Sequence record: MW598459
Reading direction: 5' to 3' (one strand)
DNA: 64,000 nucleotides
Source of the DNA: Escherichia phage vB_EcoM_RZ
Shown here piece after piece: positions 2,144 through 52,519 of the stretch (the stretch's first letter is position 1; every line of letters begins with the position of its first letter). The notes beneath the pieces were generated by a model. The model had not been told where the DNA came from. It saw only the letters and a program-made list of their open reading frames with translations, and ran no database searches. The position numbers were made by a program, and so were the translations under genes.

Positions 2144-2499
2144 TTGACAATTACCTTATAGCCTTTAACTTTAGAAAATGATTGGATTTTGGAACCGGTT
2201 TCTATCAACATATCTTCATTAGAAGAAGATAGCATTATATCCACGATTTGACCTTTACCGTATGGGTTGATAGAAACTTCTTCCTTGGCAATCATAGCTA
2301 AAAATCTATTTAACTGCATACCAAATTCAAGAGTCACTTCATGAATACGAAGGTTAAGCTGGTATACTTTCTTAACACCGTTAACTAAGGAAGCCATTTC
2401 GTCCCATGCATTACGTTGTTCTTCGCGAGGCTCTTCAATCAATTTAAGGGAATGGCCTTCGCCATCCCAATTTAGTTCCATAGGAATCATTTGAACCAT
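2140..2499 (-). CDS. Hypothetical protein (119 aa)
   Basis: ORF with ATGA-type overlap to downstream gene. Confidence 0.45.
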
Positions 2500-7606: not shown

Positions 7607-7972
7607 TTAATTGTGCATTTGTTCTTTAACTTCTTTATATGCGCCAACTGCATTCACGACCCCAGTAAAATCTGCAGTCCCACGATAGAGATAGAATGCA
7701 ATTTCAGTCAGGTGGTATACTTCAAATTCTGAAAGATAAATGATAACGTCATAATATGCAACTTGACCCTGGACTTCGTTGAATACCACATCAAAAATTT
7801 CATGGGTTGGAAAATTAATGTTGTTGTTTTTGAGTGCTTGGATAAGAATTTGTTTGATGTTGTGAGTAGTAACGTGTTCCATGATAATGTCCTCATTTGT
7901 TGGTATGAGGACATTATTACACAGTTGGTTCAGCTTGTAAACCGGTGATAGGGAAATTTTTCTTCTGAACAA
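7607..7972 (-). CDS. Hypothetical protein (121 aa)
   Basis: ORF in minus-strand array. Confidence 0.45.
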   Translation of the reverse strand: MFRRKISLSPVYKLNQLCNNVLIPTNEDIIMEHVTTHNIKQILIQALKNNNINFPTHEIFDVVFNEVQGQVAYYDVIIYLSEFEVYHLTEIAFYLYRGTADFTGVVNAVGAYKEVKEQMHN

Positions 7973-8523
7973 GAACGGAGGTACCAGCCATCCCCTTGTG
8001 ACTTCTGCACAAGACCAGACTCAGGAACGAAAGCACCAGGCCCAGCAAGGAATTTTGGTTTAAATCTATAACCTTTGAGAGTCTCTTTTACATTAAACAT
8101 AATCATAAGGTCAGCAAGTTTGTGCTGCATAAAGGGACCAAGATTAACCCCGTAACCATGTGGATAATCGCCCTGGTGGCCAGTATGTACGGATATCCAT
8201 TTGGAACCAGACTGATGAGTCTTGACTTCGATTCTTACCCCTTCCTTCGAAACTACATCAAATGCAAAGGAATAAGGATTATCGTAATCTTCATCACCGC
8301 CACATAAAAAACCGGAGGTCCATTTAGCAATAGCTTGTTCAGCCATTGTAGCCACCATACATCTTTGCATGACTTGCTCACGGTCCTGACCCGGGTCTTT
8401 ACGCAATGAATACCTGGCTGTATCTACAATCTTTTGTAGGGATTCGGGGGTTAAGTCTTCCTTTGTATAAAGAAAGGAGGGCATCTTTTTCAGATGCTCC
8501 CATGTTTTACTCTTCTGAATCAT
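7930..8523 (-). CDS. Hypothetical protein (about 198 aa); denB-like by position only
   Basis: ORF 7930-8607 trimmed to an internal Met so it no longer overlaps the upstream gene; no motif recognised. Confidence 0.4.
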   Translation of the reverse strand: MIQKSKTWEHLKKMPSFLYTKEDLTPESLQKIVDTARYSLRKDPGQDREQVMQRCMVATMAEQAIAKWTSGFLCGGDEDYDNPYSFAFDVVSKEGVRIEVKTHQSGSKWISVHTGHQGDYPHGYGVNLGPFMQHKLADLMIMFNVKETLKGYRFKPKFLAGPGAFVPESGLVQKSQGDGWYLRSCSEEKFPYHRFTS

Positions 8524-10058: not shown

Positions 10059-11072
10059 TTATTCCTTATTGGCCGCTTCCACGGCCTTCATGATTTGAGC
10101 AACGTTCTGTACTTGTTCAGTTGACATAGCGTTACGGTTATATAAAAAGTGTGAAACAATCGGGTGATTCTTTTCAAATTCAAAAACCATTTTATCGCTT
10201 GTTACCGAAGCGTTTTTGGTCAGGTCGTCATAAATCTTATTACAAAGGACCAGAGTTTCCTGCATGGTCTTATCAACTGTTCCACTGTTATATGCGTTAT
10301 AAGCAAAGAACTTATTGAACTGCATTAATTCGGCATAGTCAGTATTCACATCTTTCTGAACATCTTTTGCATAAAAATACTTGAACATAAAATTCAGTTC
10401 TGCATATTCAGACAGGATAGGAATATAATAACGCGAACGGCTTGAAGCGGCAATGTACTGGTCCGCATCAACCGCATCAATCAATTCCACATAACGATTG
10501 ACTGCAGCTTCAATCAGACAATCACACTGCGCCAGCTTGGTAATCTTTTTCTGAAGCTGTGGACGAATAACACAGAATTCATTGATTTCCAACAGGTTTG
10601 CCAGTTTACACAATGTCTGGGTCCCGAAGGTCGTGGTGCCATATTCTTGATTCAACGGGGAAATGCTACTGCGGTTAATGAATACAGCATAACCATCGAT
10701 TTCCTCTGCATCAGCTGCACATGTAAATTCTTCAACAGACTGCCAGCGACCATTGGTTTTAGTCCAACGAATCACCGATGGAGTCTTTGACTTAACACGC
10801 TCTTTCGGGTCCGCAACCGGAATCCAGTCTTTTACAAGGGCGGTCAGTTCAGACGTACGATAGATATTAACCGTATCGCCTTTAAATCGTTCCTGGAGTT
10901 GAACCATCAACCGTGTTTGAATTTCGCTGGTTGGGTCAACGAACAATAGACTACTACCTTGTACAGTCGGGACTTTACCAGAGGCTTTGAGCTTTTTGGC
11001 TTTCGCGCTGGTGTCATACAGCATTGAACTGATGCCCCGTCGCAATTCGCCCTTTAGCATCGTCAATAACAA
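10059..11072 (-). CDS. rIIA: rIIA protein, C-terminal part (frame-shifted relative to the N-terminal part)
   Basis: 337 aa ORF directly downstream of the rIIA N-terminal ORF, overlapping it by 59 nt in another frame. Confidence 0.7.
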
Positions 11073-12288
11073 TGTTCAAGGTATCATTCTGAATACCAAA
11101 CATGCTCGTCAGACTTGCAGTATTCGTGTTCGAGCTTGAGTTACGCAGACGTTTCAGACGGGTAGTGCTATAGATATCATAGACAACCCCGGCATTAATA
11201 AGGTCTTTGTCCAGCTCGAACATTTCGTACATCTGGTTAAAAGTCAGTTGTGATTTTGTAAATTTCGTTTCAGCATTACGAGCTTTCAGAAAATTACGAG
11301 CTTCATAATTCAGATTCTGTAATTCGCGATACGTGTGGCGGATACATTCTGATTCCTGCCATTTCTTACAATCATCTTCCATGACCTTCTTATCAAGCGA
11401 TTCAATACGTTCAATGATATTTGCGACCGTACGTTTGTCCAGTGATAATGCTTCGCGAGAAGGTGCAATATCCAACGAACCCATCGGGAACTTAATAAAG
11501 ACAACATCATTTTTGGCGGTCATCCAGGTTTTCTTTGTATAACCGTCACCAATCGGATAAACAATACCGCCGTAAATTGCATAAAGTCCATAACGTTCTG
11601 GGCTGCTATAATCAATACGCGCTGGAGCATAATAATCATCAAATTCTGGGAAGTAATTAATTTCGCCTGCACCTTGCACTTCAGCCAGTCCAGCAAATGG
11701 ACGCATGATATATGCAATCTCGTAGCGGAACTTACCAAAATCATTACTATCAACCGGGACAACAACTTCAATCCCTGTGCGGTCACCAGGTTTCATTGGT
11801 TCGCTAAAGGTTGGCTTAATCTGTGGACCATCGCCGTCCATATAAGCGACATAACCATTAACTTGCCCATCATGATATGAAATCAGGCTAAACGTCTCTG
11901 TATAACTAAACGGAGATTTAGAACCCAGACCAAAGCCACCAATAAAATCGTTGGATTCCGCCTTGGATGATGCAAAGAAACTGTTATACAGACCTGGGGT
12001 ATTTTCATCACCACGAATCTGGAAATCACTCATACCTGGACCAAAGTCACGGCATACAAAACGTGGGTCCAGTTCACCAGGAGCTTGCACAATGAATTTA
12101 TCCTGGCAGCCATTGAGCATATGAGCATCAATCATATTGGTAATCAGCTCACGGACAACCGCGCGCACCTTGTTTGTATAAAGGTCGCTGGTCAGAATCT
12201 TAAACACCTTTGGAGATGCCTGGATTGTGAATGCTGATGCCTTGGCACCATTACCAAGGATTGTTTCCTTTTCAGTTTCTAAAATCAT
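11014..12288 (-). CDS. rIIA: rIIA protein, N-terminal part
   Basis: 424 aa; ...[31 protein letters not shown]....FGPGMSDF...[21 protein letters not shown] matches recalled T4 rIIA N-terminus. Confidence 0.85.
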
Positions 12289-25668: not shown

Positions 25669-26205
25669 TTAATAACCCCGGTCCTGACGAGCAAAGTTCT
25701 CGGCATTTTTCAGGTAATACAGTTTAAAGATTTCTTCTGCAGTCAGTCCAAGGCCGTGGAACATGTTCAGAACAAAGTGCAGGATATCAATCATCTCAAA
25801 TTTAATTTCGAGCTGGTCTTCGGGAGACAACTCATCAATACGACGATTACGGAATTCAGCATGTTGGACTTTCCAAGGCTTCCATACACTAGATGCAGCT
25901 TTCTCGCCATTAGACATACCACCGAGAGAAGTCAGAAGTTCACGGAATTCGTCGTCGACATAATCTTTCTGGTTACGAAGCCATGCAACAACATCACCTG
26001 CAGTAGCCAATTCATCTGGATGTGAGTTATATTCTGGTTTTTCAGTAGCCAGACGAACTTGCAATGATTTCTGCATATCAAGCATAATCTGCAGCGGGTC
26101 AGTACCTTTTGTAATCGCATTGTCATAAGCTTCTTCAGCTTTATCAACACCAGCAATCAGTTGGGAACACTCGTTAAAATGAGCCATTATATTTTTCCTT
26201 ATCAA
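25669..26205 (-). CDS. 56: dCTP pyrophosphatase gp56 (MazG-like)
   Basis: 178 aa; position next to soc; similarity to recalled T4 gp56. Confidence 0.8.
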   Translation of the reverse strand: MIRKNIMAHFNECSQLIAGVDKAEEAYDNAITKGTDPLQIMLDMQKSLQVRLATEKPEYNSHPDELATAGDVVAWLRNQKDYVDDEFRELLTSLGGMSNGEKAASSVWKPWKVQHAEFRNRRIDELSPEDQLEIKFEMIDILHFVLNMFHGLGLTAEEIFKLYYLKNAENFARQDRGY

Positions 26206-26648: not shown

Positions 26649-27398
26649 CTAAACTTTTGCGTACTTCCAAAAATGGCCGTTTGACCTATACATTCGGCCT
26701 GTCTTTTTATTTCTTTTACAAGCTGTGTATATATTTTGAGTATTGCCCGCCAATTGTAATAATTCCTTTGCCTCAGCTCCCGAATTATACTTTTCAAGTA
26801 TATTACCAAATTCATCGCATCTACAAACCGGTGTTCCAGTTGCCTTTCGGCATGCTTCTCGGCGCAACTTTTTCGTTTCTTCGGTTTGCGGATTTTCTTT
26901 AAATCGTCTCATTTGTGCATCGCGATTCTTTTGCCGTTGTTCATCAGTAATTGGATTATTTTGATAATACAATTTTAATGAGTTGGCTATTTTGCTTTTG
27001 GTTTTATCAGACACAGGGTGGTCGTTATGTCGCTTGTGTAAAGCAATTAACATTTTGTCTTTAAACTCGGATTGACTCCATAAGTTTGACATATGTTCAC
27101 TAACGGCTTTACTATGTTCTTTTCGCATCCATTCATATTTTGCGCTATCAAATTTGTCACCACACATCCGGTGTATAGCAAACATTAATTTAGAAAGTCG
27201 ATAAATTTTAAAAAGTAACAAATGCGCAATAAAATGTTCTCTTGCTGATAACAATACCAAATTATCTTCGGTGTCAGGCCCACCCAAACACCTTGGTAGT
27301 ATATGATGGGACTCCGTATAAAATGGGATATTCTTTTTGTTTAGGCCCCTTGCGAGGCCTTTGTCTATTAATTTATTATATAATTTTAGATAATTCAT
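26649..27398 (-). mobile_element. HNH homing endonuclease gene (249 aa)
   Basis: N-terminal ESHHILPRCLGGPDTEDNLVLLSAREHFIAH HNH motif; C-terminal helix-turn-helix-like DNA-binding repeats; inserted between 56 and 61. Confidence 0.8.
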
Positions 27399-31469: not shown

Positions 31470-31492
31470 GAAAAAGACCCGAAGGTCTTTAG
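31470..31492 (-). terminator. Rho-independent terminator downstream of gene 41
   Basis: GACC-CGAA-GGTC hairpin with flanking A and T runs. Confidence 0.5.
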
Positions 31493-32928
31493 AATTTCAT
31501 TTGAGCAGCAAGGTCGTCCAGGTCGCTCCTGTTGACCCTGGTTTGTCTATTCATTTCAGCCTGGCGATTCATCTCACCAGTGGCTTCTTTAACCGTAGGG
31601 CCTTGCTTAGGAGCTGAATCATCATCAACCTCATACCAGCGTTGATTACCTTTCTTAACACCCATCTTGAATTTATTATAGTAGTTCTTATCGCCATAAC
31701 GAGACTTAAGCTGTTTGATTAACTGCAGTCCCATTTGAGCGAATTCTTCGGTCTCAACAACACCCAACATAAAGTCGGCCGTGTGAGCAATACCAAAGGA
31801 TTCTGCGATGTCAGCCATATCAATCTCAGCTGCAACGTTCGCACCCCTGGTTGTCTGTGCTGCAGTCCACAGGACTACATTTTTCTCAACCGCCAGACCA
31901 CGAAGTTCTTCTGCAACCATCTTAATCAGGCCGTAACTGTTTTCGGTAAACGTTTTCAGTCTTGAGCTTGCACAGATTGCCAGGTAGTCAACAATAATCA
32001 CATCCGGCACAAACCCTTGCTTCAGTTTGTATTCATTCAATAATGCACGGAAGGTATCCGCATGAGCGCCACCGGTTGGATATTGTTTTATCTTCAGAGT
32101 CCCAAGAGTCCCGGAAGCACGCCATTTTTCCATCTTAGCTTTATATTCCGCCCATGATATATGACCTTCATCAATATCATCCAGAGACACATCCAACAAG
32201 TTGGCATCAATACGTTTGGCACATACTTCTTCAGCCATTTCCATGCTTATATAAAGCACGTTATGACCAGTCTGAAGATAGTCAGCGGCTAATGAACAAA
32301 GTCCAAGGGATTTGCCGACGTTTGTCCCAGCCAGTAAAACGTTCTCTGTACCGTACTCAACCCCACCCTTTGTGATTTTATTCAGGATGTTAATACGGAA
32401 CGGAACCTTCTTCGATTTGTTCAGATAAGTCTGGAATCGAGCTTCGTAATCGTTTAACCAGTCATGGCCCAGAGCGGAGTCAAAACAGATAGACAATGCA
32501 TCGCGCATGATGTCGGGGATAGCACCAATATCCGGGATTCGTTTATCACGTTTATCTTTCGGAAGTTCGGCATTACTCTGGATTTCGATAATCCTGGATG
32601 TGGCATTGAACATCGCAGACTTCTGTACATACTTCTCGGTTTCTTTAACCAACCATTCCTGGTCTTCTGGAGTATCGGCCAGGACTCCTAAGAGTTTCTT
32701 TGTGCCTTCATATTCGACTTCAGAAAGGTCAGAACTATCGAGCGCGATATCAAGTGCAGTCTTAGTTGGTACCGCTTGATATTCTTTTACGTGTTCGTTA
32801 ATCGTATTAAAAAGGGTCTTTGCAGGACCCTTTTCAAAATATGTGTTATTCAGATATGGCCAGACTTTAACAAAATATTCCTTGTTAAAGAGTAGCTGGG
32901 ATAAAATAGTTTCTACCACTTCCACCAC
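31489..32928 (-). CDS. 41: Replicative DNA helicase gp41 (DnaB-like)
   Basis: 479 aa; Walker A GTNVGKSLG; matches recalled T4 gp41. Confidence 0.93.
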   Translation of the reverse strand: MVEVVETILSQLLFNKEYFVKVWPYLNNTYFEKGPAKTLFNTINEHVKEYQAVPTKTALDIALDSSDLSEVEYEGTKKLLGVLADTPEDQEWLVKETEKYVQKSAMFNATSRIIEIQSNAELPKDKRDKRIPDIGAIPDIMRDALSICFDSALGHDWLNDYEARFQTYLNKSKKVPFRINILNKITKGGVEYGTENVLLAGTNVGKSLGLCSLAADYLQTGHNVLYISMEMAEEVCAKRIDANLLDVSLDDIDEGHISWAEYKAKMEKWRASGTLGTLKIKQYPTGGAHADTFRALLNEYKLKQGFVPDVIIVDYLAICASSRLKTFTENSYGLIKMVAEELRGLAVEKNVVLWTAAQTTRGANVAAEIDMADIAESFGIAHTADFMLGVVETEEFAQMGLQLIKQLKSRYGDKNYYNKFKMGVKKGNQRWYEVDDDSAPKQGPTVKEATGEMNRQAEMNRQTRVNRSDLDDLAAQMKF

Positions 32929-33257
32929 CTCTTTTTCATTTTAATCTTATCAATTTCATCTTGTATTTGCATTGTAACACACTTTTCTACATGCACTGCA
33001 AGCTCCGCTTTGCGGTCTTCGGAAGGGGTGCCGAAATCAACTGAAACTTTTCCAGATGGTTCAATTTTAATTCCGGTTACGTACACAATGTGACTGGACC
33101 CATCAGGGAGTGATAACAGAATTTCCTGTCGCACGGTTCCCATGGATTGCCGGATAATCTCCAAACTTTTTTCGTAGTAAGGTACAGAAGGAGCCTTAGC
33201 TCCCTCCGCATCTTTCTCGAAATTATCTAAATCAGATAAATCGATATCATTCATCAA
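32913..33257 (-). CDS. Hypothetical protein (114 aa); gene 40 position
   Basis: Lies between uvsX and 41 as gene 40 does in T4; sequence not independently recognised. Confidence 0.5.
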   Translation of the reverse strand: MMNDIDLSDLDNFEKDAEGAKAPSVPYYEKSLEIIRQSMGTVRQEILLSLPDGSSHIVYVTGIKIEPSGKVSVDFGTPSEDRKAELAVHVEKCVTMQIQDEIDKIKMKKRWWKW

Positions 33258-34425
33258 GGTCTTCCATCATATCTAAATCGTTTTCAATATCTGCAGCAGA
33301 CGGTTTTGTCTTACCTTCCGGAGCAGTGTATTTTTCAACCTTGGAGGCAATAAGCGCGTCAACTTCGGCATCAACAACAGCATTGCTATCGATTGCACCC
33401 AGTTGGTAATGGCGTTTGATTGCATCACGGAAAGGTTCGTGTTTGAACAGTGGGCCCCAGAATTCGGTGCAGTTAGTATCTTTTGCGCGCCATGATTTTT
33501 CTTCGCGGACCATTTCACCGGTCTCAACATCAAGATATTCACGGTTATACCAACCAACTTTTGGTTTCACCACAAATCCGATTTCCATTGCCATATCAAG
33601 CAGGCCAGAATACGGGTCAATACCGCCATCGAATTTTACATCAATGAAGAATTTACTTTTCTCTTTGACCATACGAGATTTTTCGGCGTTCAGAACAAAT
33701 TGGAAGCCTTCAAGTTCTTTACCAGTTTCTTTAATCTGGCGTTTGCCGATAATGAATACGGTGTCCGCGGAATACATAACACCTGTACCGCCGGTCATAA
33801 CGGTTTTACTGTACATCTCAATCGTCTCGATTGTATGGTTAACCGCGACACAAGGAATATCCTTGATGCTAAAATATGGAGTAACAATACGGAACAGAGA
33901 TTTCAGGGATTTAGCACGAGTCATATCGCCAACAACTTTTTCGTTCATCGCATCTTCTGTTTCTTTTTTCGACGCCATGTTACCGATTGAGTCAATAAAG
34001 ATAATGACTTTTTCACCACGCTCAATTGCTTCAAGCTGGTTAACCATATCAACTTTCAATTGTTCAACCGACTGGATTGGTGTATGGATAACACGCTCCG
34101 GGTCAACTTTCATTGCACGAAGATAGGCTTCTGTGATACCAAATTCTGAATCATAGAACAAACAGATTGCATCGGGGTATTTGTTCATATATGCAGAGAC
34201 CATCGTTAAACCCATATTGGATTTAAAGTGTTTTGACGGACCAGCAAAAATAGTCAAACCTGACTGCATACCACCATCTAGTGCACCGCTGATTGCAATG
34301 TTCAGCATTGGGATTTTTGTACGAACTACATCTTTATCATTAAAGAACTTGGACTTGGTAAGAGTCGCAGTCATTTTGGATGTAGAAGCTTTAATCAAAC
34401 GGGATTTCAAATCTGCAATAGACAT
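33247..34425 (-). CDS. uvsX: UvsX recombinase (RecA-like)
   Basis: 392 aa; Walker A region AGPSKHFKS; matches recalled T4 UvsX. Confidence 0.93.
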   Translation of the reverse strand: MSIADLKSRLIKASTSKMTATLTKSKFFNDKDVVRTKIPMLNIAISGALDGGMQSGLTIFAGPSKHFKSNMGLTMVSAYMNKYPDAICLFYDSEFGITEAYLRAMKVDPERVIHTPIQSVEQLKVDMVNQLEAIERGEKVIIFIDSIGNMASKKETEDAMNEKVVGDMTRAKSLKSLFRIVTPYFSIKDIPCVAVNHTIETIEMYSKTVMTGGTGVMYSADTVFIIGKRQIKETGKELEGFQFVLNAEKSRMVKEKSKFFIDVKFDGGIDPYSGLLDMAMEIGFVVKPKVGWYNREYLDVETGEMVREEKSWRAKDTNCTEFWGPLFKHEPFRDAIKRHYQLGAIDSNAVVDAEVDALIASKVEKYTAPEGKTKPSAADIENDLDMMEDLDE

Positions 34426-34767
34426 TCATTTTTTCCATAGGCACCATTATATTTTTCTCACAGGTTTAAGATAGGATAATTATATCACTGTATTTTTAGA
34501 GCAATTAACGATTGAAACCACGATTAATTGCACGTTCAACAATCTTCCGGGTCTGACGTTTGTCCCACCAGTACATAAAACCAATACCAAATGCAGACAA
34601 CATCCACAGACTAATCAATAGCACACCAATCATAATATTTTTCCCGCAGTTCAGAGTAATTTAGTAAACGTTTCCACGTTTCCAGTTTTCTTCAGCCAAA
34701 TGCTTATTACGCTTTTCTAATAGCAGCAAACCAATTACTGTTCCAACAATCAGAAGTAATAATAACA

Positions 34768-35271
34768 TCAGTTAATACCTTGGCGTGCTTTCTCTTTAGC
34801 TACACATTTATTAATATAGCTCAGACGGTTTTGAGCAGAACGCTGATACATATCGCGGTACTCATTAGCTTTTGGAGAACCCGTCTCTGCTGCCTGATAA
34901 GCTTCCGCGCGCATAATGTTTATCTGCATATTGATGTATGACATGCAGACCTGTGAAATCTGGTTAACAGTGTCAAGGTCATTTTGTCGCTTGGTTTCTG
35001 CTTCCAGTTTGGCAATGATTTCGTCATGCTTCGCAGCTTGTTCGCGTTTGTACTCAATTTCACGTTGAGCATATTTCGCGCAGTTGTTTCCACATTGATT
35101 GTTGTCGCGTTTGTAGATAAGTCCAGTACCACCTTTGAAATCAAAGGAACCATTATGCACCTGACGGTCTGCAGCAATTCGCGCTTTACCAATCTCATTG
35201 GCATTAACAACATCACCCTGGTAAGCACAACCAGATAGCAGCATAACAGCTGCGATAGCTAACTTTTTCAT
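34768..35271 (-). CDS. Putative lipoprotein (about 167 aa)
   Basis: MKKLAIAAVMLLSGCAYQ signal peptide with lipobox; start trimmed to this Met. Confidence 0.55.
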   Translation of the reverse strand: MKKLAIAAVMLLSGCAYQGDVVNANEIGKARIAADRQVHNGSFDFKGGTGLIYKRDNNQCGNNCAKYAQREIEYKREQAAKHDEIIAKLEAETKRQNDLDTVNQISQVCMSYINMQINIMRAEAYQAAETGSPKANEYRDMYQRSAQNRLSYINKCVAKEKARQGIN

Positions 35272-35421
35272 TGTATTTTCCTCAATTAAAACATTCATAG
35301 CGGGCTTGGAGTCCCAAAAATACCCAACCCAAAATTAAAGTTGGAATCATATGCGGAGTCATTATTGCCCAATAGATTGACATACTAAAAAATGCAATCA
35401 GTACAATAATTGTAATTATCT

Positions 35422-35664
35422 TCATTTGGTTTCCTTGATGATAATTACTTGTGCGTTTGATTTACGCTCAGCAACGAGTGCCCAGATAAATGCAATAAAC
35501 CATCCGACCATTGTCCAACCTAACAGGAGGTTAACAAAGAAGATTCCGCAATTACTTTTGGTTCCTCGCAGTAGCGCGATAATCCATGGCAGAAAATATG
35601 CCAGTGCAGCCAGGAAGAAAGAACCAGCACCAAGAACAACAGTACCTGCAATTAATGTTTCCAT
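35422..35664 (-). CDS. Pmp3/YqaE-family proteolipid-like membrane protein (80 aa)
   Basis: FLPWIIALLRGTKSNCGIFFVNLLLGWTMVGWFIAFIWAL resembles the YqaE pattern as I recall it; two TM helices. Confidence 0.45.
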   Translation of the reverse strand: METLIAGTVVLGAGSFFLAALAYFLPWIIALLRGTKSNCGIFFVNLLLGWTMVGWFIAFIWALVAERKSNAQVIIIKETK

Positions 35665-35736
35665 TTTAATATCCTTAATTTAATCATCAGTAGTTGATGG
35701 AGTAATCATACGGCAATCCTTTGCCGTTGTAAACAC

Positions 35737-38451
35737 TTAAAAATCAAACATATCAAAAAGAGATGCTTTTTTCTCGTAATCAACCTTAGCTGCTTCAGAG
35801 AACCCTGTTAATGGTTTGACAAAAGTCTTCTGGAACAGTGTGTTGTAGTCCATCCACTGCAAGACTTGGTCACGAATTTCAATCGGGAGTTCAATCCCTG
35901 ATGGCCATGCAATCACGGTTTCGCCAAACGGGTTACCAACTTTAAGAGGAAGCACATACACCTTTTCCCCTTCCATGATTTGTGGAACAGTCTTCAGACC
36001 TTTAGTTGCACGCATATATGCAAGCACACCTTTGATATGAGCCGGGCACTTAAATCCAGGGAAACCGCCTTCATTATATTTCTGGATGTTGTTAACCGAT
36101 GATACACCTGCGATGGTCATGTAGTTAAGCTCATTAAATTCCTTATTGAATTCCTTGAAGTATGTCTGCAGAGATTCTTCACCTTCTTGCAACATGCGGC
36201 GGATACATTCTTTCAGAGCTTTCTGACATGCCTTTGGAGTGCTCGACTTTTGAGTTTCCAGACCCATGATTTTCAGTTTCGGAACAGCATATCGTGTGCC
36301 TTCCATATCGTACACGTTCAACGCATAACGCTTCTTCGCCGTCCAGAACCCACCAACACCTTTAGAACCCAGCGGAGGACATGCAATCGCTTCACGGTCC
36401 ATAAACATAAGGTGCTGTTTGTTGTTCATGTATTCAGCCAGCTCACGGAAAGCTTTATCGATTGCCGGTTCCAGACGGTCTTTCGCGAACTTGTCCATGA
36501 AGTCAACCAGGTGGTTTGTATCACGGAATTTAGATTCACCACCAACCTTTTTAATCAGGTTATCGCACTGGATATAAATGGAGTCAGTGTCACCATAGAA
36601 TACGTAGGTTTCGCCGTTTGTCCCACAGACACTATCGAAGTATTCGTTAACTTTACGCTCAATCCACTGCAATGCAAGTTGTCCGAAAGATGTAATCGCG
36701 GTTGCATTTCGCAGGTCAAAGTAACGGAACCAGATATTACCCAGAGCGCCATAACAACTGTTGATAAGCAGTTTACGGTTAATCTGTGCGGTCATGCCTG
36801 CAACTTCTTCCATTTGTGCTTTGTACAACATACCATTCAGAACTGTTTGATTCAGTCCATGCAAGGTTGTTTTCATATTGTCATCAAAGTCATGACGATA
36901 ATCAACTTCAGGCTCGGTTGTACCAGTTCCTGGATTACGCAGAGCTTCCTTAATCAGTTCACCATTACGTTGAGCCGCAAGCATATAGCCTTTGTGTTCT
37001 TTACGCTGATTAAACACCTTGGTGACTTCTGTTGGAATAATACCTGCAACATCTTTAAAATACATCATACCATTTGGGGCACAACTAAATGTATCAGATG
37101 GACGGTCAGCAGTTCCTGCGATGTATTCATACATCTGGGCTGGAGCAAATGAACCGGCAATCGTTTCGGGACTGATGTTAATCTGTCGGATGATGCTCGG
37201 ATACAGAGATGTTAAGTCACAGCTCATTACATATTTGTATGCGTTCGGAATAGGTTCCTTAACAAATGCACCGGGGAACGATTGACGAACATGCGATTTG
37301 GTTTCCGGAATGACTTTGTTTTGAGTCTTCAGGCTGTTAAAGATAATCGCATCCCAAGTTTTGATTGGGCTGAATACAGACTGAATCTGCATCTTTGCAT
37401 AATAACCCATTGACTGACTCAGGTTAATAAACTGCCGCTTACGGTCAATCTGCACAACACGATAAACGTCGATGATGTTATAAGAAATATACCGTTGGTG
37501 ATTTGATTCACGCAGTTTAGAAATTGGGCCATCATATGGGAGTTTACCAACACCCAGTTCAGATTCCGCAACATAATCCAACGAATAAGACGGTTGATTT
37601 GTGAAGCTGAACTTTTTATACAGGTCCAGATAATCCAGAACAGAGATACCCAGAATCTGAATGATTTCTTGTTCTTCACCGAAACCGTTGTTAATGACCT
37701 TAACTTTTGTACGACGATGCGGACTCAGACGTTTTGCCGTAGCTTCACCAAATACATTTTTAAGACGGTTGTAGATATATGGAATATCAAACTTCTCGAT
37801 GTTCCAACCAGTTAACATAACCGGAGTTTTCTCGTTCCAGAATACCAAATACTGCTGGAGCATTTCTTCTTCTGAATCGAAAGCCATATAAACAATTTTT
37901 TCCAGGATTTCTTCAGGGACTTCATCGCCGCCATCTTCTTGCAGCTTAGCAGCAATATCAATAGACCATTGCTCCACAGTGGCGTATGGTGAGCTCAAAA
38001 GGTCAAAGACATAGAATTTATCGTCTACCGAATCATAGTGCGTCAGGGCATCAATAGGGTGACGTGCTTCAGACGGCTCAGGGAACCCATCGGGAGATGT
38101 CACCTCGATATCGAAGTTAGCAACACGGATTTTACTTGAATCATATTTGATTTCGTGTGGGTAACGGTCGGACAAGTATGCAAGTTTAAAGTCATCCATA
38201 CCCATAGCTTCGAGACCCATGTCATTCATTCGCTTCATCCACTGGGATGCATCACGCATGGAATCGAATTCTTTTTTCACACAACCTTTATTATAGATGT
38301 CTGTATACTTTGCAGCCTGGTCTTCACGGGCGTGCATAAACAAGCATGGAGCATAAGGGATTTCACGAACACGTTCATGACCGTTCTTGTCAATGTATCG
38401 TTCGAGCAGATTGTCACCGATTTGTTCGATAGTTAAATAAAATTCTTGCAT
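35737..38451 (-). CDS. 43: DNA polymerase gp43 (family B)
   Basis: 904 aa; motifs YGDTDS, KILINSxYGALG and exonuclease FDIE present; matches recalled T4 gp43. Confidence 0.96.
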   Translation of the reverse strand: MQEFYLTIEQIGDNLLERYIDKNGHERVREIPYAPCLFMHAREDQAAKYTDIYNKGCVKKEFDSMRDASQWMKRMNDMGLEAMGMDDFKLAYLSDRYPHEIKYDSSKIRVANFDIEVTSPDGFPEPSEARHPIDALTHYDSVDDKFYVFDLLSSPYATVEQWSIDIAAKLQEDGGDEVPEEILEKIVYMAFDSEEEMLQQYLVFWNEKTPVMLTGWNIEKFDIPYIYNRLKNVFGEATAKRLSPHRRTKVKVINNGFGEEQEIIQILGISVLDYLDLYKKFSFTNQPSYSLDYVAESELGVGKLPYDGPISKLRESNHQRYISYNIIDVYRVVQIDRKRQFINLSQSMGYYAKMQIQSVFSPIKTWDAIIFNSLKTQNKVIPETKSHVRQSFPGAFVKEPIPNAYKYVMSCDLTSLYPSIIRQINISPETIAGSFAPAQMYEYIAGTADRPSDTFSCAPNGMMYFKDVAGIIPTEVTKVFNQRKEHKGYMLAAQRNGELIKEALRNPGTGTTEPEVDYRHDFDDNMKTTLHGLNQTVLNGMLYKAQMEEVAGMTAQINRKLLINSCYGALGNIWFRYFDLRNATAITSFGQLALQWIERKVNEYFDSVCGTNGETYVFYGDTDSIYIQCDNLIKKVGGESKFRDTNHLVDFMDKFAKDRLEPAIDKAFRELAEYMNNKQHLMFMDREAIACPPLGSKGVGGFWTAKKRYALNVYDMEGTRYAVPKLKIMGLETQKSSTPKACQKALKECIRRMLQEGEESLQTYFKEFNKEFNELNYMTIAGVSSVNNIQKYNEGGFPGFKCPAHIKGVLAYMRATKGLKTVPQIMEGEKVYVLPLKVGNPFGETVIAWPSGIELPIEIRDQVLQWMDYNTLFQKTFVKPLTGFSEAAKVDYEKKASLFDMFDF

Positions 38452-44226: not shown

Positions 44227-45242
44227 GGTTGCACCTCAAGATATAATTTGTTGGCCAATGCTTTGAGAGCTTTTGATTCTTTCTCATTGGCATCAGGTAA
44301 TGCATCGATATATTCTGCCATCATATCAGTTAAGCGTTTTATGTCTAACTCTTCTTCGGAGTCAGTCGTATCAACACTATTGTCAACCTTATTGACCACA
44401 CGCAAATCATGCACGCGCTTTTCTAATTCAGATTCAAACTTGGTCAGGTCTTTATCGACTTTTTCTACAATAACACGGACTGATAAGTCTTTAAAGTCGT
44501 CGTAGTTAATAGTTTCGTTTGGATAGAAAATCTTCCGATGCCAGGTGGTTTCATTCGGAATAAATTTCATCTCTTCGGTTTCGGTGTCAAATTCCCAAAA
44601 CCCACGAGGGTCATTCTCATCACCTGCTGTTAATGTCCATGGTGTCCCTATGTACTTAACGTTTGCAGCTTCTGAAATGGTATGGAAGTGTCCAGACCAA
44701 ACTTGCTTGTACTTCTTAAGGAAATCAGGCTCAAGCCCGTGGGATTTCAATCCTTTATAGAAATAAAACCCGGACAATTCCCAGTGACCAATGCAATATT
44801 CAGCACCAGAAGTTTTGATGTGTTGATGAATGTCAGTCGCGTTCTCGTCACACATCCATGGAATCATATCAATCTGACAGCCGTCAAAATCAACAGTCGT
44901 TGGCTTGTCGTAGATTTTAACATGGTCATACTTATTCAGGAGTTCGGTGATAGCATTAGGATGAATCTTATTCTTCAGATTCATGTCATGGTTCCCGACT
45001 ATCGTGTGCATAGTAATTCCTGCTTCACGAAGGAGTTCCATAATCTCGCGACTGAATTCCATCGTCTTATGCGTTACGGCCTTACGGACGTCAAAGATAT
45101 CACCATATTGAATCCAGACTTTAATTCCATTCGCCTTAGAATATGCAATCGCCTGTAAAATACCATCACGTTGAATGTTTTGAGCCCATGGGTCGTCAGC
45201 TTTGACACCTAAGTGCCAATCACCTAAATTTAAAATTTTCAT
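44223..45242 (-). CDS. 47: Recombination nuclease gp47 (Mre11/SbcD-like)
   Basis: Start trimmed to MKILNLGDWHLG (339 aa); calcineurin-like phosphoesterase motifs GDWH, GNHD. Confidence 0.92.
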   Translation of the reverse strand: MKILNLGDWHLGVKADDPWAQNIQRDGILQAIAYSKANGIKVWIQYGDIFDVRKAVTHKTMEFSREIMELLREAGITMHTIVGNHDMNLKNKIHPNAITELLNKYDHVKIYDKPTTVDFDGCQIDMIPWMCDENATDIHQHIKTSGAEYCIGHWELSGFYFYKGLKSHGLEPDFLKKYKQVWSGHFHTISEAANVKYIGTPWTLTAGDENDPRGFWEFDTETEEMKFIPNETTWHRKIFYPNETINYDDFKDLSVRVIVEKVDKDLTKFESELEKRVHDLRVVNKVDNSVDTTDSEEELDIKRLTDMMAEYIDALPDANEKESKALKALANKLYLEVQP

Positions 45243-45382
45243 AAGCCAAGCGCCATTATCGCAATGCAAAATAAAATTATTGAAATGAACCCGTCAGGAG
45301 TAGAAAAGAATCCTATCCAACAAGCTCGTGTGAATGTGTAGAATGCCATGAATAACACGACATATCCTAAAAATAATTCCAT
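45239..45382 (-). CDS. Small membrane peptide (47 aa, not in track)
   Basis: My own translation MELFLGYVVLFMAFYTFTRACWIGFFSTPDGFISIILFCIAIMALGL; SD GAGGAG; stop overlaps gp47 start. Confidence 0.4.
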   Translation of the reverse strand: MELFLGYVVLFMAFYTFTRACWIGFFSTPDGFISIILFCIAIMALGL

Positions 45383-45425
45383 ATACTCTCCTCAGTTGGT
45401 TCATTTTATCATCCCGAATATAAAG

Positions 45426-45452
45426 CAAAAAAGGAAGCACTAGGCTTCCTTT
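45426..45452 (-). terminator. Rho-independent terminator
   Basis: GGAAGC-ACTA-GCTTCC hairpin followed by T-run on the minus strand. Confidence 0.5.
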
Positions 45453-50234: not shown

Positions 50235-50705
50235 TTAATCATGTTTCCACACCCCATCGGTATTTGACCAAAGTCGCTGATTATCTGACCCTCGCCACAG
50301 TTTTTTGGTCGGAAGATTTTTCTCATACTTCCCATCAATAATAATATCAACATATTTAAGCATTTCTAGTTGTTTAATATCTTCAAACTTATATCCTGTC
50401 CACATCCAAATGCTTTTATTTGGATAAAGATTTTTAACAGTTTGAACCACAGAGTGAATAACATCTCGGTTATCAGGATAGAGAGGGTCTCCTCCGGTTA
50501 TAGTTAATCCTTCTATATAATCATTATTCAAACATTCAATTAATTGTTCTAGTGTTTCACCAGTGAATGGAATGCCATTTCTAGCATTCCATGTTGATTT
50601 ATTATAACACCCTTCACATTTATGCAAACAACCTGTGACGAAAAGAACGACCCTGCATCCAGGGCCATTCACAAAATCGCAAGGATAAAATCTATCATAA
50701 TTCAT
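50235..50705 (-). CDS. nrdG: Anaerobic ribonucleotide reductase activating protein NrdG (radical SAM)
   Basis: 156 aa; CLHKCEGC (CxxxCxxC) cluster motif. Confidence 0.9.
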   Translation of the reverse strand: MNYDRFYPCDFVNGPGCRVVLFVTGCLHKCEGCYNKSTWNARNGIPFTGETLEQLIECLNNDYIEGLTITGGDPLYPDNRDVIHSVVQTVKNLYPNKSIWMWTGYKFEDIKQLEMLKYVDIIIDGKYEKNLPTKKLWRGSDNQRLWSNTDGVWKHD

Positions 50706-52519
50706 TGGTGTTTAACCCTATGCATGATTTCTTTATTTTTGCCGAGATTAAATCCGCGTTCGTTCGGATTTCCCAAATAACCACAAGTTCTTCTTATTGT
50801 GTTCATCTTTTTAGGGTCAGTTTCTCCACAAATAGAACAAACAAATCCGTTTTCAGTAGGAGTCATTTCATGAGTACTTCCACACGTAAAACATTTATCT
50901 ACTGGCATATTAACACCAAAATAATCTAAATGTTGTGCGGCATAATCCCATACAGCCTCAAGACCTTTTAAGTTATTTTTCATATCAGGAAGTTCAACAT
51001 AAGAAATGTGACCACCTGTCGCAATGAAATGATATGGGGCTTCGCGAGAAATCTTTTCAAACGGAGTGATATTTTCTTCTACTGAAACGTGGAAACTGTT
51101 AGTGTACCAGCCTTTATCAGTAACATCCTTTACACTTCCATATTTTTCAGTATCAAGTTTACAAAAGCGATAACAAAGGTTTTCAGCAGGTGTAGAATAC
51201 AAACTAAAAGCAAAACCGGTTCTTTCAGTCCACTGCTTAAGACGAGCATTCATTTTAGTTAAAATTTCTTGCCCAATATCACGACCGGCAAGAATATTCA
51301 ATTCGTGAATACCAATGTATCCCAAAGACACTGAACTTCTACCGTTTTTAAATAACTCAATTATGTCGTCATCAGGTTTAAGACGAACCCCGAATGCACC
51401 TTCTTGGTAAAGAATAGGAGCAACAGTCGCTTTAACTCCTTTTAAAGAACTAATTCTACACATCAATGCTTCAAAGCATAAATCCATTCGCTCATTGAAC
51501 AATTCGATAAATTTCTGTTCATTGAACTGTGTTCCAATATAAGAATCTAACGCAATGCGAGGAAGATTCAGTGTTACAACACCAAGATTATTACGCCCAT
51601 CAAGAATTTCATTACCAGTCGAATCTTTCCATACGCTCAAGAAACTACGACAACCCATTGGAGAAACAGGAATAGATGAACCGGTGATAGCTTTGTTATT
51701 CTTAACTGAAATAATATCAGGATACATCCTTTTGCTTGCACACTCTAGAGCAAGCTGCTTAATATCATAGTTCGGGTCGTCTTTATAAAGATTAACACCT
51801 TCTTCAACGAACATAACAAGTTTAGGGAAAATAGGAGTTATCCCATCGCGACCAAGACCTTTGATACGATTTTTCAGAATTGCTTTCTGAATCATTCGTT
51901 CAGTCCAGTCAGTTCCCGTGCCAAACGTAATTGTCACAAAAGGCGTTTGCCCATTTGAACTAAAGAGCGTATTTACTTCATATTCATAAGCTTGGAATGC
52001 ATCATATACGTCTTTTTCTGTTTTAGATTGAGCATAATTCAATGCATCAGTGATTTGCCATTTTTCTGCATCTTCAATATGTTTTGCGTATGTACGTTTA
52101 ACATAAGGAGAAAATACTTTGTCTACATTAGCAAAAGTCGTTCCACCATATTGGTGAGAAGCAACCTGTGCAGTAATTTGTGCCATAATTGCAGTAGCAA
52201 CACCAATTGATTTAGGAGTTTCAATCTGCGCATTACCGAGCTTAAACCCGTTCTCAAGCATTCCTTTTAAATCTACTAAACAGCAATTAGTAAATGGAAG
52301 AGCGGGGGAATAATCAATATCATGGAAATGAATAATTCCACTTTCATGTGCTTTCATAATAAAAGACGCGACCATATTTTTGGCAATGTGTTTAGATACA
52401 ATACCAGCCATAAGGTCCCGTTGAGTTGGAAAAACACGAGAATCTTTATTAGCATTCTCGTTTAAAAGGTCTTTATTAGTTTTATGAATCAATCCTTCAA
52501 TTTCGTTTTCAATTGTCAT
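50702..52519 (-). CDS. nrdD: Anaerobic ribonucleoside-triphosphate reductase NrdD
   Basis: 605 aa; C-terminal glycyl-radical motif RTCGYLG and zinc ribbon CFTCG...CSICG. Confidence 0.95.
   Translation of the reverse strand: MTIENEIEGLIHKTNKDLLNENANKDSRVFPTQRDLMAGIVSKHIAKNMVASFIMKAHESGIIHFHDIDYSPALPFTNCCLVDLKGMLENGFKLGNAQIETPKSIGVATAIMAQITAQVASHQYGGTTFANVDKVFSPYVKRTYAKHIEDAEKWQITDALNYAQSKTEKDVYDAFQAYEYEVNTLFSSNGQTPFVTITFGTGTDWTERMIQKAILKNRIKGLGRDGITPIFPKLVMFVEEGVNLYKDDPNYDIKQLALECASKRMYPDIISVKNNKAITGSSIPVSPMGCRSFLSVWKDSTGNEILDGRNNLGVVTLNLPRIALDSYIGTQFNEQKFIELFNERMDLCFEALMCRISSLKGVKATVAPILYQEGAFGVRLKPDDDIIELFKNGRSSVSLGYIGIHELNILAGRDIGQEILTKMNARLKQWTERTGFAFSLYSTPAENLCYRFCKLDTEKYGSVKDVTDKGWYTNSFHVSVEENITPFEKISREAPYHFIATGGHISYVELPDMKNNLKGLEAVWDYAAQHLDYFGVNMPVDKCFTCGSTHEMTPTENGFVCSICGETDPKKMNTIRRTCGYLGNPNERGFNLGKNKEIMHRVKHQ

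What the first reader, a model, noticed from the sequence alone, without database searches (positions are those of the whole stretch)
34426..35736. uvsX to gene 43 interval lacks beta-gt and gene 42, carrying membrane proteins instead
In T4, beta-glucosyltransferase, dCMP hydroxymethylase (42) and imm sit between uvsX and 43. Here the interval holds a lipoprotein (LSGC lipobox), a Pmp3/YqaE-like proteolipid and at least three small hydrophobic peptides (about 34570-34630, 34640-34770, 35300-35420, my own translations). No thymidylate-synthase-like ORF is seen anywhere in the window, although dCTPase gp56 is present. Either cytosine modification is encoded elsewhere or differs from T4, and this interval has been repurposed for envelope-acting proteins, possibly superinfection exclusion.
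Basis: partly seen in the sequence, partly recalled or inferred. Interest (0 to 1): 0.6.

Follow-up and report, generated by a model that had tools for sequence, protein, structure and literature searches.

The report
Imm region lacking cytosine-modification genes
This stretch of a T4-like coliphage (genus Gaprivervirus) holds the usual T-even superinfection-immunity membrane genes but has lost the enzymes that T4 uses to modify its cytosines, and the only related enzyme left in the genus carries the one amino-acid change known to turn thymidylate synthase into a maker of 5-methylcytosine.

Summary
Between uvsX (33247-34425) and gene 43 (35737-38451), all on the minus strand, lie five membrane ORFs and no gene 42, beta-gt or alpha-gt.

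The ORFs are not a repurposing:
- The 80-aa "Pmp3-like" protein is Imm (Pfam PF14373; 52% identical to T4 Imm).
- The 47-aa ORF is T4 42.1.
- The lipoprotein belongs to the T4 Imm.1 family (phrog_1754).
- The two tiny ORFs (42 and 35 aa) are optional cassettes.

The window is a Gaprivervirus (97% to TH40 and MN01). In the sister genus Dhakavirus this interval carries the arabinosyl-5-hydroxycytosine gene cluster. Gaprivervirus lacks that cluster entirely, and a complete relative (VR7) has only one thymidylate-synthase homolog, td.

Two papers call this an unsolved puzzle, because the dCTPase, alc and denB are kept. VR7 DNA is reported to carry modified, unglycosylated cytosines.

New lead: every Gaprivervirus Td I examined has Asp at E. 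coli ThyA position 177, against Asn in 117 other T-even Td. That switch converts the enzyme into a dCMP methylase, so I predict 5-methylcytosine DNA (about 0.55). The td gene lies outside the window, and the prediction is untested.

The parts
33247..34425 (-). uvsX, the RecA-like recombinase that bounds the interval on the left
   Evidence: Pfam T4_UVSX_C E=3.6e-39 and RecA E=7e-08. 98.5% identical to VR7 UvsX.
34446..34506 (-). uvsX upstream control region. It has a MotA-box-like AATTGCTCTA (34506->34497), a 12-nt spacer and TATAAT (34484->34479), plus a second TATAAT (34451->34446).
   Evidence: Motifs read from the sequence. About 89 nt next to uvsX are conserved at 82-84% in roughly 900 T4-like genomes. 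Calling it a T4-type middle promoter is inference from the known consensus.
34505..34633 (-). 42-aa single-pass membrane protein with a basic C-terminal tail (…RKIVERAINRGFNR). It is an optional cassette.
   Evidence: Present in 15 Gaprivervirus records and absent from others such as SP18. An unannotated homolog lies just upstream of uvsX in JS98 (…REVRKIVDKAINRGIK*). No Pfam or PHROG match.
34661..34768 (-). 35-aa single-pass membrane protein. It is an optional cassette sitting where Dhakavirus has its modification cluster.
   Evidence: Found in 10 Gaprivervirus records only, independently of the 42-aa ORF. No family match. Whether it is a functional gene is uncertain.
34768..35271 (-). 167-aa lipoprotein of the T4 Imm.1 family (lipobox LLSG|C, Ala at +2). 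The C-terminal half is helical.
   Evidence: phrog_1754 E=7.8e-47; T4 Imm.1 hits the same PHROG at E=6.1e-43 and JS98 orf43 at E=9e-52. Homologs occur in 120 phage records. In the AlphaFold2 model residues ~70-165 are helical with pLDDT above 80, and the N-terminal part is low-confidence. Foldseek against PDB gave nothing at E<=0.001.
35282..35425 (-). 47-aa membrane protein, the homolog of T4 42.1
   Evidence: phrog_3610 E=7.6e-27. The T4 gap between genes 42 and imm encodes …IYYSVTVPLMIPTIILGWSLLLLQVKYECIN. Annotated as 42.1 in VR7. JS98 orf44 is in the same PHROG.
35422..35664 (-). imm, the superinfection immunity protein (80 aa, two hydrophobic segments)
   Evidence: PF14373 E=1e-17, 64.2 bits against a cut-off of 27.9. 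phrog_1039 'immunity to superinfection' E=1.8e-30. 52% identical to T4 Imm over all 83 residues, E=3e-24. 68% identical to JS98 Imm.
35705..35733 (-). sigma-70-like promoter match (TTTACA-17-TATGAT) between gene 43 and imm
   Evidence: Consensus scan, 10 of 12 matches. This is a pattern match only; the region held fewer such matches than shuffled sequence.
35737..38451 (-). gene 43 DNA polymerase, which bounds the interval on the right
   Evidence: 904-aa ORF, 98% identical to VR7 gp43.
25669..26187 (-). gene 56 dCTPase/dUTPase. It removes dCTP, which implies that a modified dC nucleotide is needed.
   Evidence: 68% identical to T4 gp56 over its full length, E=1e-78.
7930..8523 (-). denB (endonuclease IV, specific for cytosine-containing DNA in T4), kept in the window
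   Evidence: 97% identical to the annotated VR7 denB.

Best explanation
**Shown.**
- The interval is the ordinary T-even "imm" segment: imm, 42.1 and an Imm.1-family lipoprotein, all homologs of T4 genes in the same interval, plus two tiny membrane ORFs that are present or absent from strain to strain.
- The window belongs to the genus Gaprivervirus.
- In the sister genus Dhakavirus (JS98), the space between the lipoprotein gene and uvsX holds the cytosine-modification module: a ThyA-like gene and four neighbouring genes homologous to RB69 orf045c-052c.
- That module is absent from the Gaprivervirus interval. No thymidylate-synthase (TS) homolog other than td exists in a complete Gaprivervirus genome.

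**Inferred mechanism.**
- Imm acts as in T4, as an inner-membrane block to DNA entry by superinfecting T-even phages. The lipoprotein and the small ORFs are envelope accessories of unknown role.
- Cytosine modification has moved to td. Gaprivervirus Td keeps the full canonical TS active site but has Asp in place of the dUMP-specifying Asn (E. coli N177). I therefore predict that it methylates dCMP to 5-methyl-dCMP.
- gp56 supplies the dCMP. gp1 and host NDP kinase raise 5-methyl-dCMP to the triphosphate, and the DNA then carries 5-methylcytosine without sugars.
- dTMP would come from deamination of 5-methyl-dC nucleotides by Cd, from host ThyA, or from Tk.
- This change would have made gene 42 and the sugar genes dispensable, so they were deleted.
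For: **Identity of the interval genes**
- Pfam and PHROG matches.
- tblastn matches to T4 and JS98 proteins.
- T4 gene order and JS98 gene order.

**Genus**
- 31 records cover at least 80% of the query, almost all at 95-98% identity. All those I checked are Gaprivervirus.

**No other TS homolog**
- tblastn and six-frame HMM searches on the window and on the whole VR7 genome find only td.
- PMC8056088 and PMC12115623 report that the genus lacks the hmC synthase while keeping dCTPase, denA, denB and alc (PMC12115623 also lists ndd).
- Among VR7 ORFs with no JS98 counterpart I saw no other enzyme candidate.

**The Td substitution**
- VR7, SP18, TH40, MN01, CJ20 and all 17 full-length cluster members read GLPFDIGSY. 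All 117 other best T-even Td read PFN.
- Td aligns residue for residue with the T4 Td crystal sequence 1TIS.
- C146, L143, H147, Q165, R166, S167, D169 and G173 are retained.
- The frd-td-nrdA gene order is retained.
- Gaprivervirus Td is 65-69% identical to every other T-even Td, whereas other genera share 73-88% with one another. This is a long branch.

**The N177D rule**
- The switch from dUMP to dCMP, giving 5mdCMP, is stated in PMC8670742.
- L143 is described as marking methyl versus hydroxymethyl products, and D169N as marking 5-hydroxy-dCMP synthases (PMC13326640).
- Five of seven natural Asp-177 TS homologs made 5mdC when co-expressed with T4 gp1. Xp12-type phages are proposed to make dTTP by deaminating 5-methyl-dC nucleotides (bioRxiv 10.1101/2024.12.05.627091).

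**Experiment on a relative**
- VR7 DNA "has modified cytosines" and is not glycosylated. The authors list it separately from hydroxymethylated T4147 (PMC6326788 and its supplement).

**Divergence of discriminating proteins**
- gp1, Alc and DenB, which must tell modified from plain cytosine, are only 38-48% identical between VR7 and JS98. UvsX, gp43 and NrdA are 72-90% identical.
Against: - td lies outside the window, so its state in this particular phage rests on its closest relatives (TH40, MN01).
- No chemical analysis of Gaprivervirus DNA was found. The VR7 restriction result says only "modified", and I could read the figure legend but not the gel.
- From my recollection of the mutagenesis literature, engineered N177D/N229D enzymes are slow, and a natural Asp-177 enzyme could be dual-specific. 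Two of the seven natural Asp-177 homologs tested in the preprint did not give 5mdC.
- The long Td branch could reflect horizontal replacement rather than a change of function.
- Functions of the Imm.1-family lipoprotein, 42.1 and the two small ORFs are unknown. The structure model gave no informative fold match.
- The direction of events (loss of the cluster rather than never having it) is inferred by parsimony from T4, RB69 and JS98.
Confidence: 0.6

Rival explanations
1. The interval has been repurposed: novel envelope-acting proteins (a Pmp3-like proteolipid, a lipoprotein and small peptides) replaced the modification genes as a new superinfection-exclusion module.
For: All five ORFs are membrane or lipoproteins. 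Two of them (35 and 42 aa) are restricted to Gaprivervirus, with one Dhakavirus homolog for the 42-aa ORF.
Against: The three conserved genes are homologs of T4 imm, 42.1 and imm.1, and they lie in the same order in JS98 next to an intact modification cluster. No Pmp3 family match was found. The two small ORFs are missing from many members of the genus, including SP18, so they cannot be the replacement function.
Confidence: 0.08
2. Gaprivervirus modifies cytosine with an enzyme unrelated to thymidylate synthase, or Td-Asp187 makes a product other than 5-methyl-dCMP. The base would then be something not yet described in T-even phages.
For: PMC8056088 and PMC12115623 suggest an unknown protein or an unknown base. 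VR7 DNA is described only as "modified". VR7 ORF134c (RB69 ORF132c family) shows an HxD…H…RxS pattern like 2OG-Fe(II) oxygenases (my reading of the sequence).
Against: Among VR7 ORFs with no JS98 counterpart I saw no enzyme candidate: they are homing endonucleases, internal head proteins and small ORFs. ORF134c is shared with JS98 and RB69, which have their own ThyA-like synthase. Td keeps L143 and D169, the residues reported to mark methyl products and to exclude 5-hydroxy-dCMP synthases.
Confidence: 0.22
3. Gaprivervirus DNA contains ordinary cytosine. gp56, Alc and DenB have relaxed or changed roles, and Td-Asp187 is a neutral or dual-specificity variant.
For: No modification enzyme is recognisable by standard annotation. 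T4-like genera with plain cytosine exist, namely Krischvirus and Pseudotevenvirus (PMC12115623).
Against: Those plain-cytosine genera lack alc and denB, whereas Gaprivervirus keeps dCTPase, denA, denB, ndd and alc. gp56 is 68-76% identical to T4 gp56. VR7 DNA behaved as cytosine-modified in restriction tests. Asn-177 is kept in all 117 other T-even Td and in 140 of 149 nearest cluster representatives.
Confidence: 0.07
4. This particular phage carries gene 42 and glucosyltransferase genes outside the 64-kb window, so the interval is merely rearranged.
For: Only about 37% of the genome is in the window. T4-like genomes shuffle accessory genes. For example, nrdD and nrdG are present here but absent from VR7.
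Against: The complete VR7 genome has none. PMC12115623 scores the hmC-synthase gene as absent for the genus. The closest relatives TH40 and MN01 carry the Asp-187 td. The T4 alpha-gt slot in the window (after 47.1, around 45242-45440) is empty, as in VR7.
Confidence: 0.03

Closest known systems
T4 (Tequatrovirus) uvsX-43 interval: uvsX, segA, beta-gt, 42, (42.1), imm, imm.1, 43
   Same: The flanking genes are the same. Homologs of imm (52% identity), 42.1 and the Imm.1-family lipoprotein are present, and the uvsX upstream region is conserved.
   Different: There is no segA, beta-gt or gene 42. The lipoprotein lies on the other side of imm and 42.1 and is longer (167 aa against 125). Two extra tiny membrane ORFs are present. 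The interval is 1.3 kb against 3.6 kb in T4.
Dhakavirus JS98 and Mosigvirus RB69 uvsX-43 interval, which carries the ThyA-like gene and sugar genes of the arabosyl-5-hydroxycytosine type
   Same: The order 43, imm, 42.1, lipoprotein is identical (68%, 56% and 53% protein identity to JS98). A homolog of the 42-aa ORF lies next to uvsX.
   Different: The five JS98 genes orf38-orf42 are absent. These are the ThyA-like orf39 (RB69 orf048c-like; RB69 gp48 is the shown 5hodCMP synthase) and four neighbours homologous to RB69 orf045c-052c. They occupy about 4.2 kb in JS98. In some strains a 35-aa ORF sits in that position (PMC13326640).
Xp12 / PaMx74-type phages, which replace C with 5-methylcytosine using a thymidylate-synthase homolog (dCMP methylase) and obtain thymidylate by deaminating 5-methyl-dC nucleotides
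   Same: There is a single thymidylate-synthase homolog with Asp at the N177 position, a dCMP-family deaminase (cd) is encoded, and a dNMP kinase is present.
   Different: Here the enzyme is the resident T-even td, in frd-td-nrdA synteny and 65-69% identical to other T-even Td. It works in a T4 background that also has dCTPase, Alc and DenB. Activity and DNA composition are untested, and cd is not adjacent to td.

Membership tests
Imm superinfection immunity protein (Pfam PF14373; T4 Imm) | Match to the family profile above the curated threshold | tested here: met
   64.2 bits against a cut-off of 27.9, E=1e-17. phrog_1039 E=1.8e-30.
Imm superinfection immunity protein (Pfam PF14373; T4 Imm) | Full-length similarity to T4 Imm, a small two-segment membrane protein, and a position next to gene 43 | tested here: met
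   52% identity over 83 of 83 residues. Hydrophobic windows span residues 3-35 and 39-65. The gene is adjacent to gene 43, as in T4 and JS98.
Imm superinfection immunity protein (Pfam PF14373; T4 Imm) | Blocks DNA entry of superinfecting T-even phages | not testable with these tools
   Needs expression in E. coli and efficiency-of-plating or DNA-injection assays.
   The Pfam scan at E<=1 returned only Imm_superinfect and a weak PRRSV_2b match.
T4 Imm.1 lipoprotein family (phrog_1754) | Profile match over the full length, plus a signal peptide with a lipobox | tested here: met
   E=7.8e-47 over residues 1-161. T4 Imm.1 hits the same PHROG at E=6.1e-43. The lipobox LLSGC is read directly from the sequence. 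Pairwise similarity to T4 Imm.1 is confined to the N-terminal 28-58 residues. No function is known for the family.
T4 gp42 dCMP hydroxymethylase, and RB69 gp48-type 5hodCMP synthase | A second thymidylate-synthase-fold gene in addition to td | tested here: not met
   tblastn with T4 gp42 and JS98 orf39 finds no hit in the window or in VR7. The six-frame HMM search gives a best E of 0.2 in the window and finds only td in VR7.
T4 alpha- and beta-glucosyltransferases | Homolog present | tested here: not met
   tblastn E>2 in the window and no hit in VR7. VR7 DNA is reported to be unglycosylated.
dCMP methylase class of thymidylate-synthase homologs (Xp12 type; engineered N177D/N229D) | Asp at the position of E. 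coli ThyA N177 | tested here: met
   D187 within GLPFDIGSY in VR7, SP18, TH40, MN01, CJ20 and 17 cluster members. It is Asn in 117 other T-even Td. The gene lies outside the window.
dCMP methylase class of thymidylate-synthase homologs (Xp12 type; engineered N177D/N229D) | Catalytic Cys146 and the reductive-methylation site are retained: L143 is kept, and D169 is not changed to Asn | tested here: met
   C156, L153, H157, Q175, R176, S177, D179 and G183 are all retained. The residue rules come from PMC13326640.
dCMP methylase class of thymidylate-synthase homologs (Xp12 type; engineered N177D/N229D) | The enzyme converts dCMP to 5-methyl-dCMP, and virion DNA contains 5mC in place of C | not testable with these tools
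   Only indirect evidence exists: VR7 DNA is "modified" and unglycosylated. LC-MS and an enzyme assay are needed.

The most novel reading that the evidence does not exclude
Gaprivervirus phages would be the first T-even-type (Tevenvirinae) lineage to replace cytosine completely with plain 5-methylcytosine. They would do so by a single Asn-to-Asp switch that retools their own thymidylate synthase, not by acquiring a new gene. Thymidylate would then come from deamination of 5-methyl-dC nucleotides or from the host. The ancestral gene-42-type synthase and the sugar cluster were deleted from the uvsX-43 interval.
Probability: 0.55. Interest if true: 0.7.

Novelty: new variant of a known kind. Interest (0 to 1): 0.55.

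Why it matters
- The membrane genes themselves are ordinary T-even accessory genes.
- The missing modification genes touch a question that two recent papers leave open: how can a phage that destroys dCTP and attacks cytosine-containing DNA replicate without a dCMP hydroxymethylase?
- The Asp-187 Td gives a concrete and cheap test of one answer.
- If it is right, it shows a DNA-modification system changing type through one residue in a housekeeping enzyme, followed by gene loss.
- It would also predict how these therapeutic-candidate coliphages meet host defences. They would be sensitive to McrBC- and Mrr-type systems and to BREX (BREX sensitivity is already reported for VR7), and they would lack the protection that sugars give.
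- It would help settle their expected transduction risk, which PMC12115623 left undecided.

Tried and rejected
- **Other enzyme candidates.** Pfam and NCBIfam scans of VR7 ORFs of unknown function gave only homing-endonuclease or DNA-binding domains (Endonuclease_7, T5orf172, AP2), two domains of unknown function on ORF136c, or nothing. VR7ORF147c, annotated as cytidine-deaminase-like, has no deaminase motif or family hit.
- **Systematic VR7-versus-JS98 ORF comparison.** I saw no genus-specific enzyme candidate. JS98 positions 75-121 kb (the structural genes) were not fetched, so VR7 ORFs in that range were skipped.
- **Lipoprotein structure.** The AlphaFold2 model has mean pLDDT 69, and only the C-terminal helices are confident. 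Foldseek against PDB found only generic helical hairpins at E of 2 or more, so no functional inference is possible. The protein word-index search found only 8 homologs.
- **A possible glucosyltransferase remnant.** In T2/T6-like phages the conserved 89 nt next to uvsX lie under the 3' end of a glucosyltransferase gene. I considered a gene remnant and rejected it: the segment reads as the uvsX promoter and leader, and it is equally conserved in JS98.
- **The original VR7 papers.** PubMed ids 20361343 and 21830070 are not held in the library.
- **Literature search.** Searches for 5-methylcytosine in Tevenvirinae, Straboviridae or Gaprivervirus found no prior report.
Full report
**1. What is in the interval**

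All genes in this part of the window run on the minus strand: 41 (31489-32928), 40 (32913-33257), uvsX (33247-34425), then the 1311-bp interval, then 43 (35737-38451), regA, 62 and 44.

The interval holds five ORFs:
- 34505-34633, 42 aa.
- 34661-34768, 35 aa.
- 34768-35271, a 167-aa lipoprotein beginning MKKLAIAAVMLLSGC.
- 35282-35425, 47 aa.
- 35422-35664, 80 aa.

Each has a strongly hydrophobic segment or a lipobox. The three larger ones have clear Shine-Dalgarno-like sequences, and the two smallest have weaker ones.

**2. Where the window comes from**

Megablast of 33200-36800 finds 31 phage records that cover at least 80% of it, almost all at 95-98% identity. The best are TH40 and MN01 at 97%. 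The genus is Gaprivervirus (SP18/VR7 group; Straboviridae, Tevenvirinae).

**3. What the ORFs are**

- The 80-aa protein is Imm, not a Pmp3/YqaE proteolipid.
  - Pfam PF14373 at E=1e-17, 64 bits against a cut-off of 27.9, and no Pmp3 hit.
  - PHROG "immunity to superinfection" at E=1.8e-30.
  - 52% identity to T4 Imm over its whole length.
- The 47-aa ORF is the homolog of T4 42.1. It matches phrog_3610 at E=7.6e-27. The T4 gap between genes 42 and imm encodes the same peptide, and VR7's annotators named it 42.1.
- The lipoprotein falls in phrog_1754 at E=7.8e-47. T4 Imm.1 (E=6.1e-43) and JS98 orf43 fall in the same PHROG. Homologs occur in 120 phage records across several T4-like genera.
  - The +2 residue after the lipid-modified Cys is Ala, which by the E. 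coli sorting rule suggests an outer-membrane location. This is inference from established knowledge.
  - An AlphaFold2 model is confident only for a C-terminal helical bundle, and it has no informative structural neighbour.
- The 42-aa and 35-aa ORFs have no family match. They are independently present or absent among Gapriverviruses:
  - Both present: the window, MN01, TH40, TH44, phage 212, DCP80, pEC-M719-6WT.2.
  - Only the 42-aa ORF: VR7, VR26, VR20, DK-13, P479, CJ20.
  - Only the 35-aa ORF: TH41, UPEC01, VR25.
  - Neither: SP18 and about a dozen others.
- The 42-aa ORF has an unannotated homolog directly upstream of uvsX in JS98, with a conserved tail R-K-I-V-[ED]-[RK]-A-I-N-R-G. It is therefore probably a real small gene. 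The 35-aa ORF is less certain.

**4. Comparison with relatives**

- T4 order: uvsX, segA, beta-gt, 42, (42.1), imm, imm.1, 43.
- JS98 (Dhakavirus) order: uvsX, (42-aa homolog), orf38, orf39, orf40, orf41, orf42, orf43 (lipoprotein), orf44 (42.1), imm, 43.
- orf39 is the RB69 orf048c-type ThyA homolog. RB69 gp48 has been shown to make 5-hydroxy-dCMP. orf38 and orf40-42 are homologs of RB69 orf045c-052c and belong to the neighbouring gene cluster (PMC13326640).
- None of orf39-orf42 has a match in the window or in VR7. The lipoprotein, 42.1 and imm match at 53%, 56% and 68%.

So the membrane genes are the conserved right-hand part of the interval in T4, Dhakavirus and Gaprivervirus alike. What is special here is that the modification module is gone. 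"Repurposed" is not the right word; "stripped" is.

**5. Is gene 42 elsewhere?**

I fetched the complete VR7 genome. Several lines agree that it has no second thymidylate-synthase (TS) homolog:
- It has no annotated 42, alpha-gt or beta-gt.
- tblastn with T4 gp42, beta-gt, alpha-gt and JS98 orf39-42 finds nothing.
- An unfiltered profile-HMM search of all six frames finds exactly one TS-fold gene, td, in VR7. It finds none in the window, where the best E is 0.2.

The window does contain gp56 (25669-26187) and denB (7930-8523). VR7 also has alc, denA, gene 1 and cd.

Two papers state the same thing for the genus and call it unresolved:
[quoted passage not shown] Experimentally, VR7 DNA "has modified cytosines" and is not glycosylated. 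It is listed apart from hydroxymethylated T4147, and VR7 is fully restricted by BREX, as T4147 is (PMC6326788 and supplement).

**6. A candidate answer**

Aligning the only TS homolog shows that VR7 Td reads GLPFDIGSY where JS98 and T4 Td read GLPFNIASY. With R176 of VR7 aligned to E. coli R166, this is position N177 of E. coli ThyA.

How fixed and how unusual the substitution is:
- The Asp is present in all Gaprivervirus Td examined: VR7; the SP18 cluster representative and its listed members; TH40, MN01 and CJ20 read from DNA; and 17 full-length cluster members in all.
- All 117 other best T-even Td have Asn.
- Among the 149 nearest cluster representatives in a 1.8-billion-protein library, 140 have Asn, 7 have Asp and 1 has Ser.

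What the substitution means, according to the literature:
- N177D switches a canonical TS from dUMP to dCMP and gives 5-methyl-dCMP (PMC8670742, citing Graves 1992, Hardy & Nalivaika 1992 and Liu & Santi 1992).
- L143 is reported to correlate with methyl versus hydroxymethyl products, and D169N marks 5-hydroxy-dCMP synthases (PMC13326640). VR7 Td keeps L143, D169, C146, H147, Q165, R166, S167 and G173.
- Five of seven natural Asp-177 homologs produced 5mdC in E. coli when paired with T4 gp1. Xp12-type phages are thought to obtain dTTP by deaminating 5-methyl-dC nucleotides, so they need no second synthase (bioRxiv 10.1101/2024.12.05.627091).

Evidence that this is the resident td gene, changed in place:
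- Synteny is kept: frd overlaps td, and nrdA lies downstream.
- Gaprivervirus Td sits on a long branch. It is 65-69% identical to every other T-even Td, while other genera share 73-88% with one another.
- gp1, Alc and DenB, the proteins that must discriminate the modified base, are only 38-48% identical between VR7 and JS98. UvsX, gp43 and NrdA are 72-90% identical.

**7. Proposed mechanism, with status of each step**

- Shown: the gene content of the interval; the absence of a second TS homolog and of glycosyltransferases in the window and in VR7; and the Asp at the specificity position in every Gaprivervirus Td examined.
- From the literature: VR7 DNA is cytosine-modified and sugar-free, and Asp-177 predicts dCMP methylation.
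- Inferred, step 1: gp56 produces dCMP.
- Inferred, step 2: Td-Asp187 converts it to 5-methyl-dCMP.
- Inferred, step 3: gp1 and host NDP kinase raise it to 5-methyl-dCTP.
- Inferred, step 4: the DNA carries 5mC in place of C.
- Inferred, step 5: dTMP comes from Cd acting on 5-methyl-dC nucleotides, from host ThyA, or from Tk.
- Inferred, step 6: the gene-42-type synthase and sugar cluster became dispensable and were deleted.
- Imm is taken to work as in T4. The other membrane proteins have no known role.

I put about 0.95 on the identity of the interval genes and about 0.55 on the 5mC model.

**8. Caveats**

- td is outside the window, so its state in this phage is inferred from relatives.
- No chemical identification of the base exists in the literature I could search.
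- From my recollection of the mutagenesis literature, engineered N177D enzymes are poor catalysts.
- Two of the seven natural Asp-177 enzymes tested in the preprint did not give 5mdC.
- The long Td branch could be due to gene replacement rather than a change of function.
- I did not compare the structural-gene third of JS98.

**9. Verdict**

The interval itself is unremarkable. The missing modification genes connect to a published open question, for which the Asp-187 Td offers a specific and easily tested solution.

Noticed in passing
window 10059-12288 (- strand): rIIA is split into two overlapping ORFs (10059-11060 and 11014-12288) by a frameshift relative to the single VR7 rIIA gene. The break is at …[10 protein letters not shown]|. 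It could be a real pseudogene or a sequencing indel.
   Followed up: partly
window 50235-52519 (- strand): nrdG (50235-50705) and nrdD (50702-52519), the anaerobic ribonucleotide reductase genes, are present here. They are absent from the VR7 genome at the corresponding place, so the genus is polymorphic for them.
   Followed up: no
window 26649-27398 (- strand): A 249-aa MobB/HNH-like homing endonuclease ORF lies between genes 56 and 61 and has no counterpart there in VR7. Conversely, the segF gene that VR7 has next to gene 56 is missing from the window.
   Followed up: no
window 59199-59945 (+ strand): A 248-aa ORF lies on the opposite strand from its neighbours (MILSGRTVDELNEKVQ…) and has no match in VR7. 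VR7 has a 98-aa Gly/Ser-rich ORF with a signal-peptide-like N-terminus at that position.
   Followed up: no
window 2140-2499 (- strand): A 119-aa ORF between arn.3 and arn.4 has no match in VR7.
   Followed up: no
window 34446-34506 (- strand): A MotA-box-like AATTGCTCTA, a 12-nt spacer and TATAAT lie upstream of uvsX. About 89 nt here are 82-84% conserved in roughly 900 T4-like genomes. The stop codon of the 42-aa ORF lies inside this element.
   Followed up: partly
VR7 genome HM563683 59937-60623 (locus L005 30938-31624), outside the window: ORF134c (RB69 ORF132c / JS98 orf120 family, 228 aa) shows an HxD…H…RxS pattern reminiscent of 2OG-Fe(II) oxygenases, but it has no Pfam or NCBIfam hit. 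It is shared by genera that have different cytosine modifications.
   Followed up: no
VR7 genome HM563683 142489-143349 (locus L006 22490-23350), outside the window: Besides N177D, Gaprivervirus Td has 33 further genus-specific substitutions at positions that are at least 97% conserved in 117 other T-even Td. They include A179G, A182G and F149L next to the active site.
   Followed up: partly
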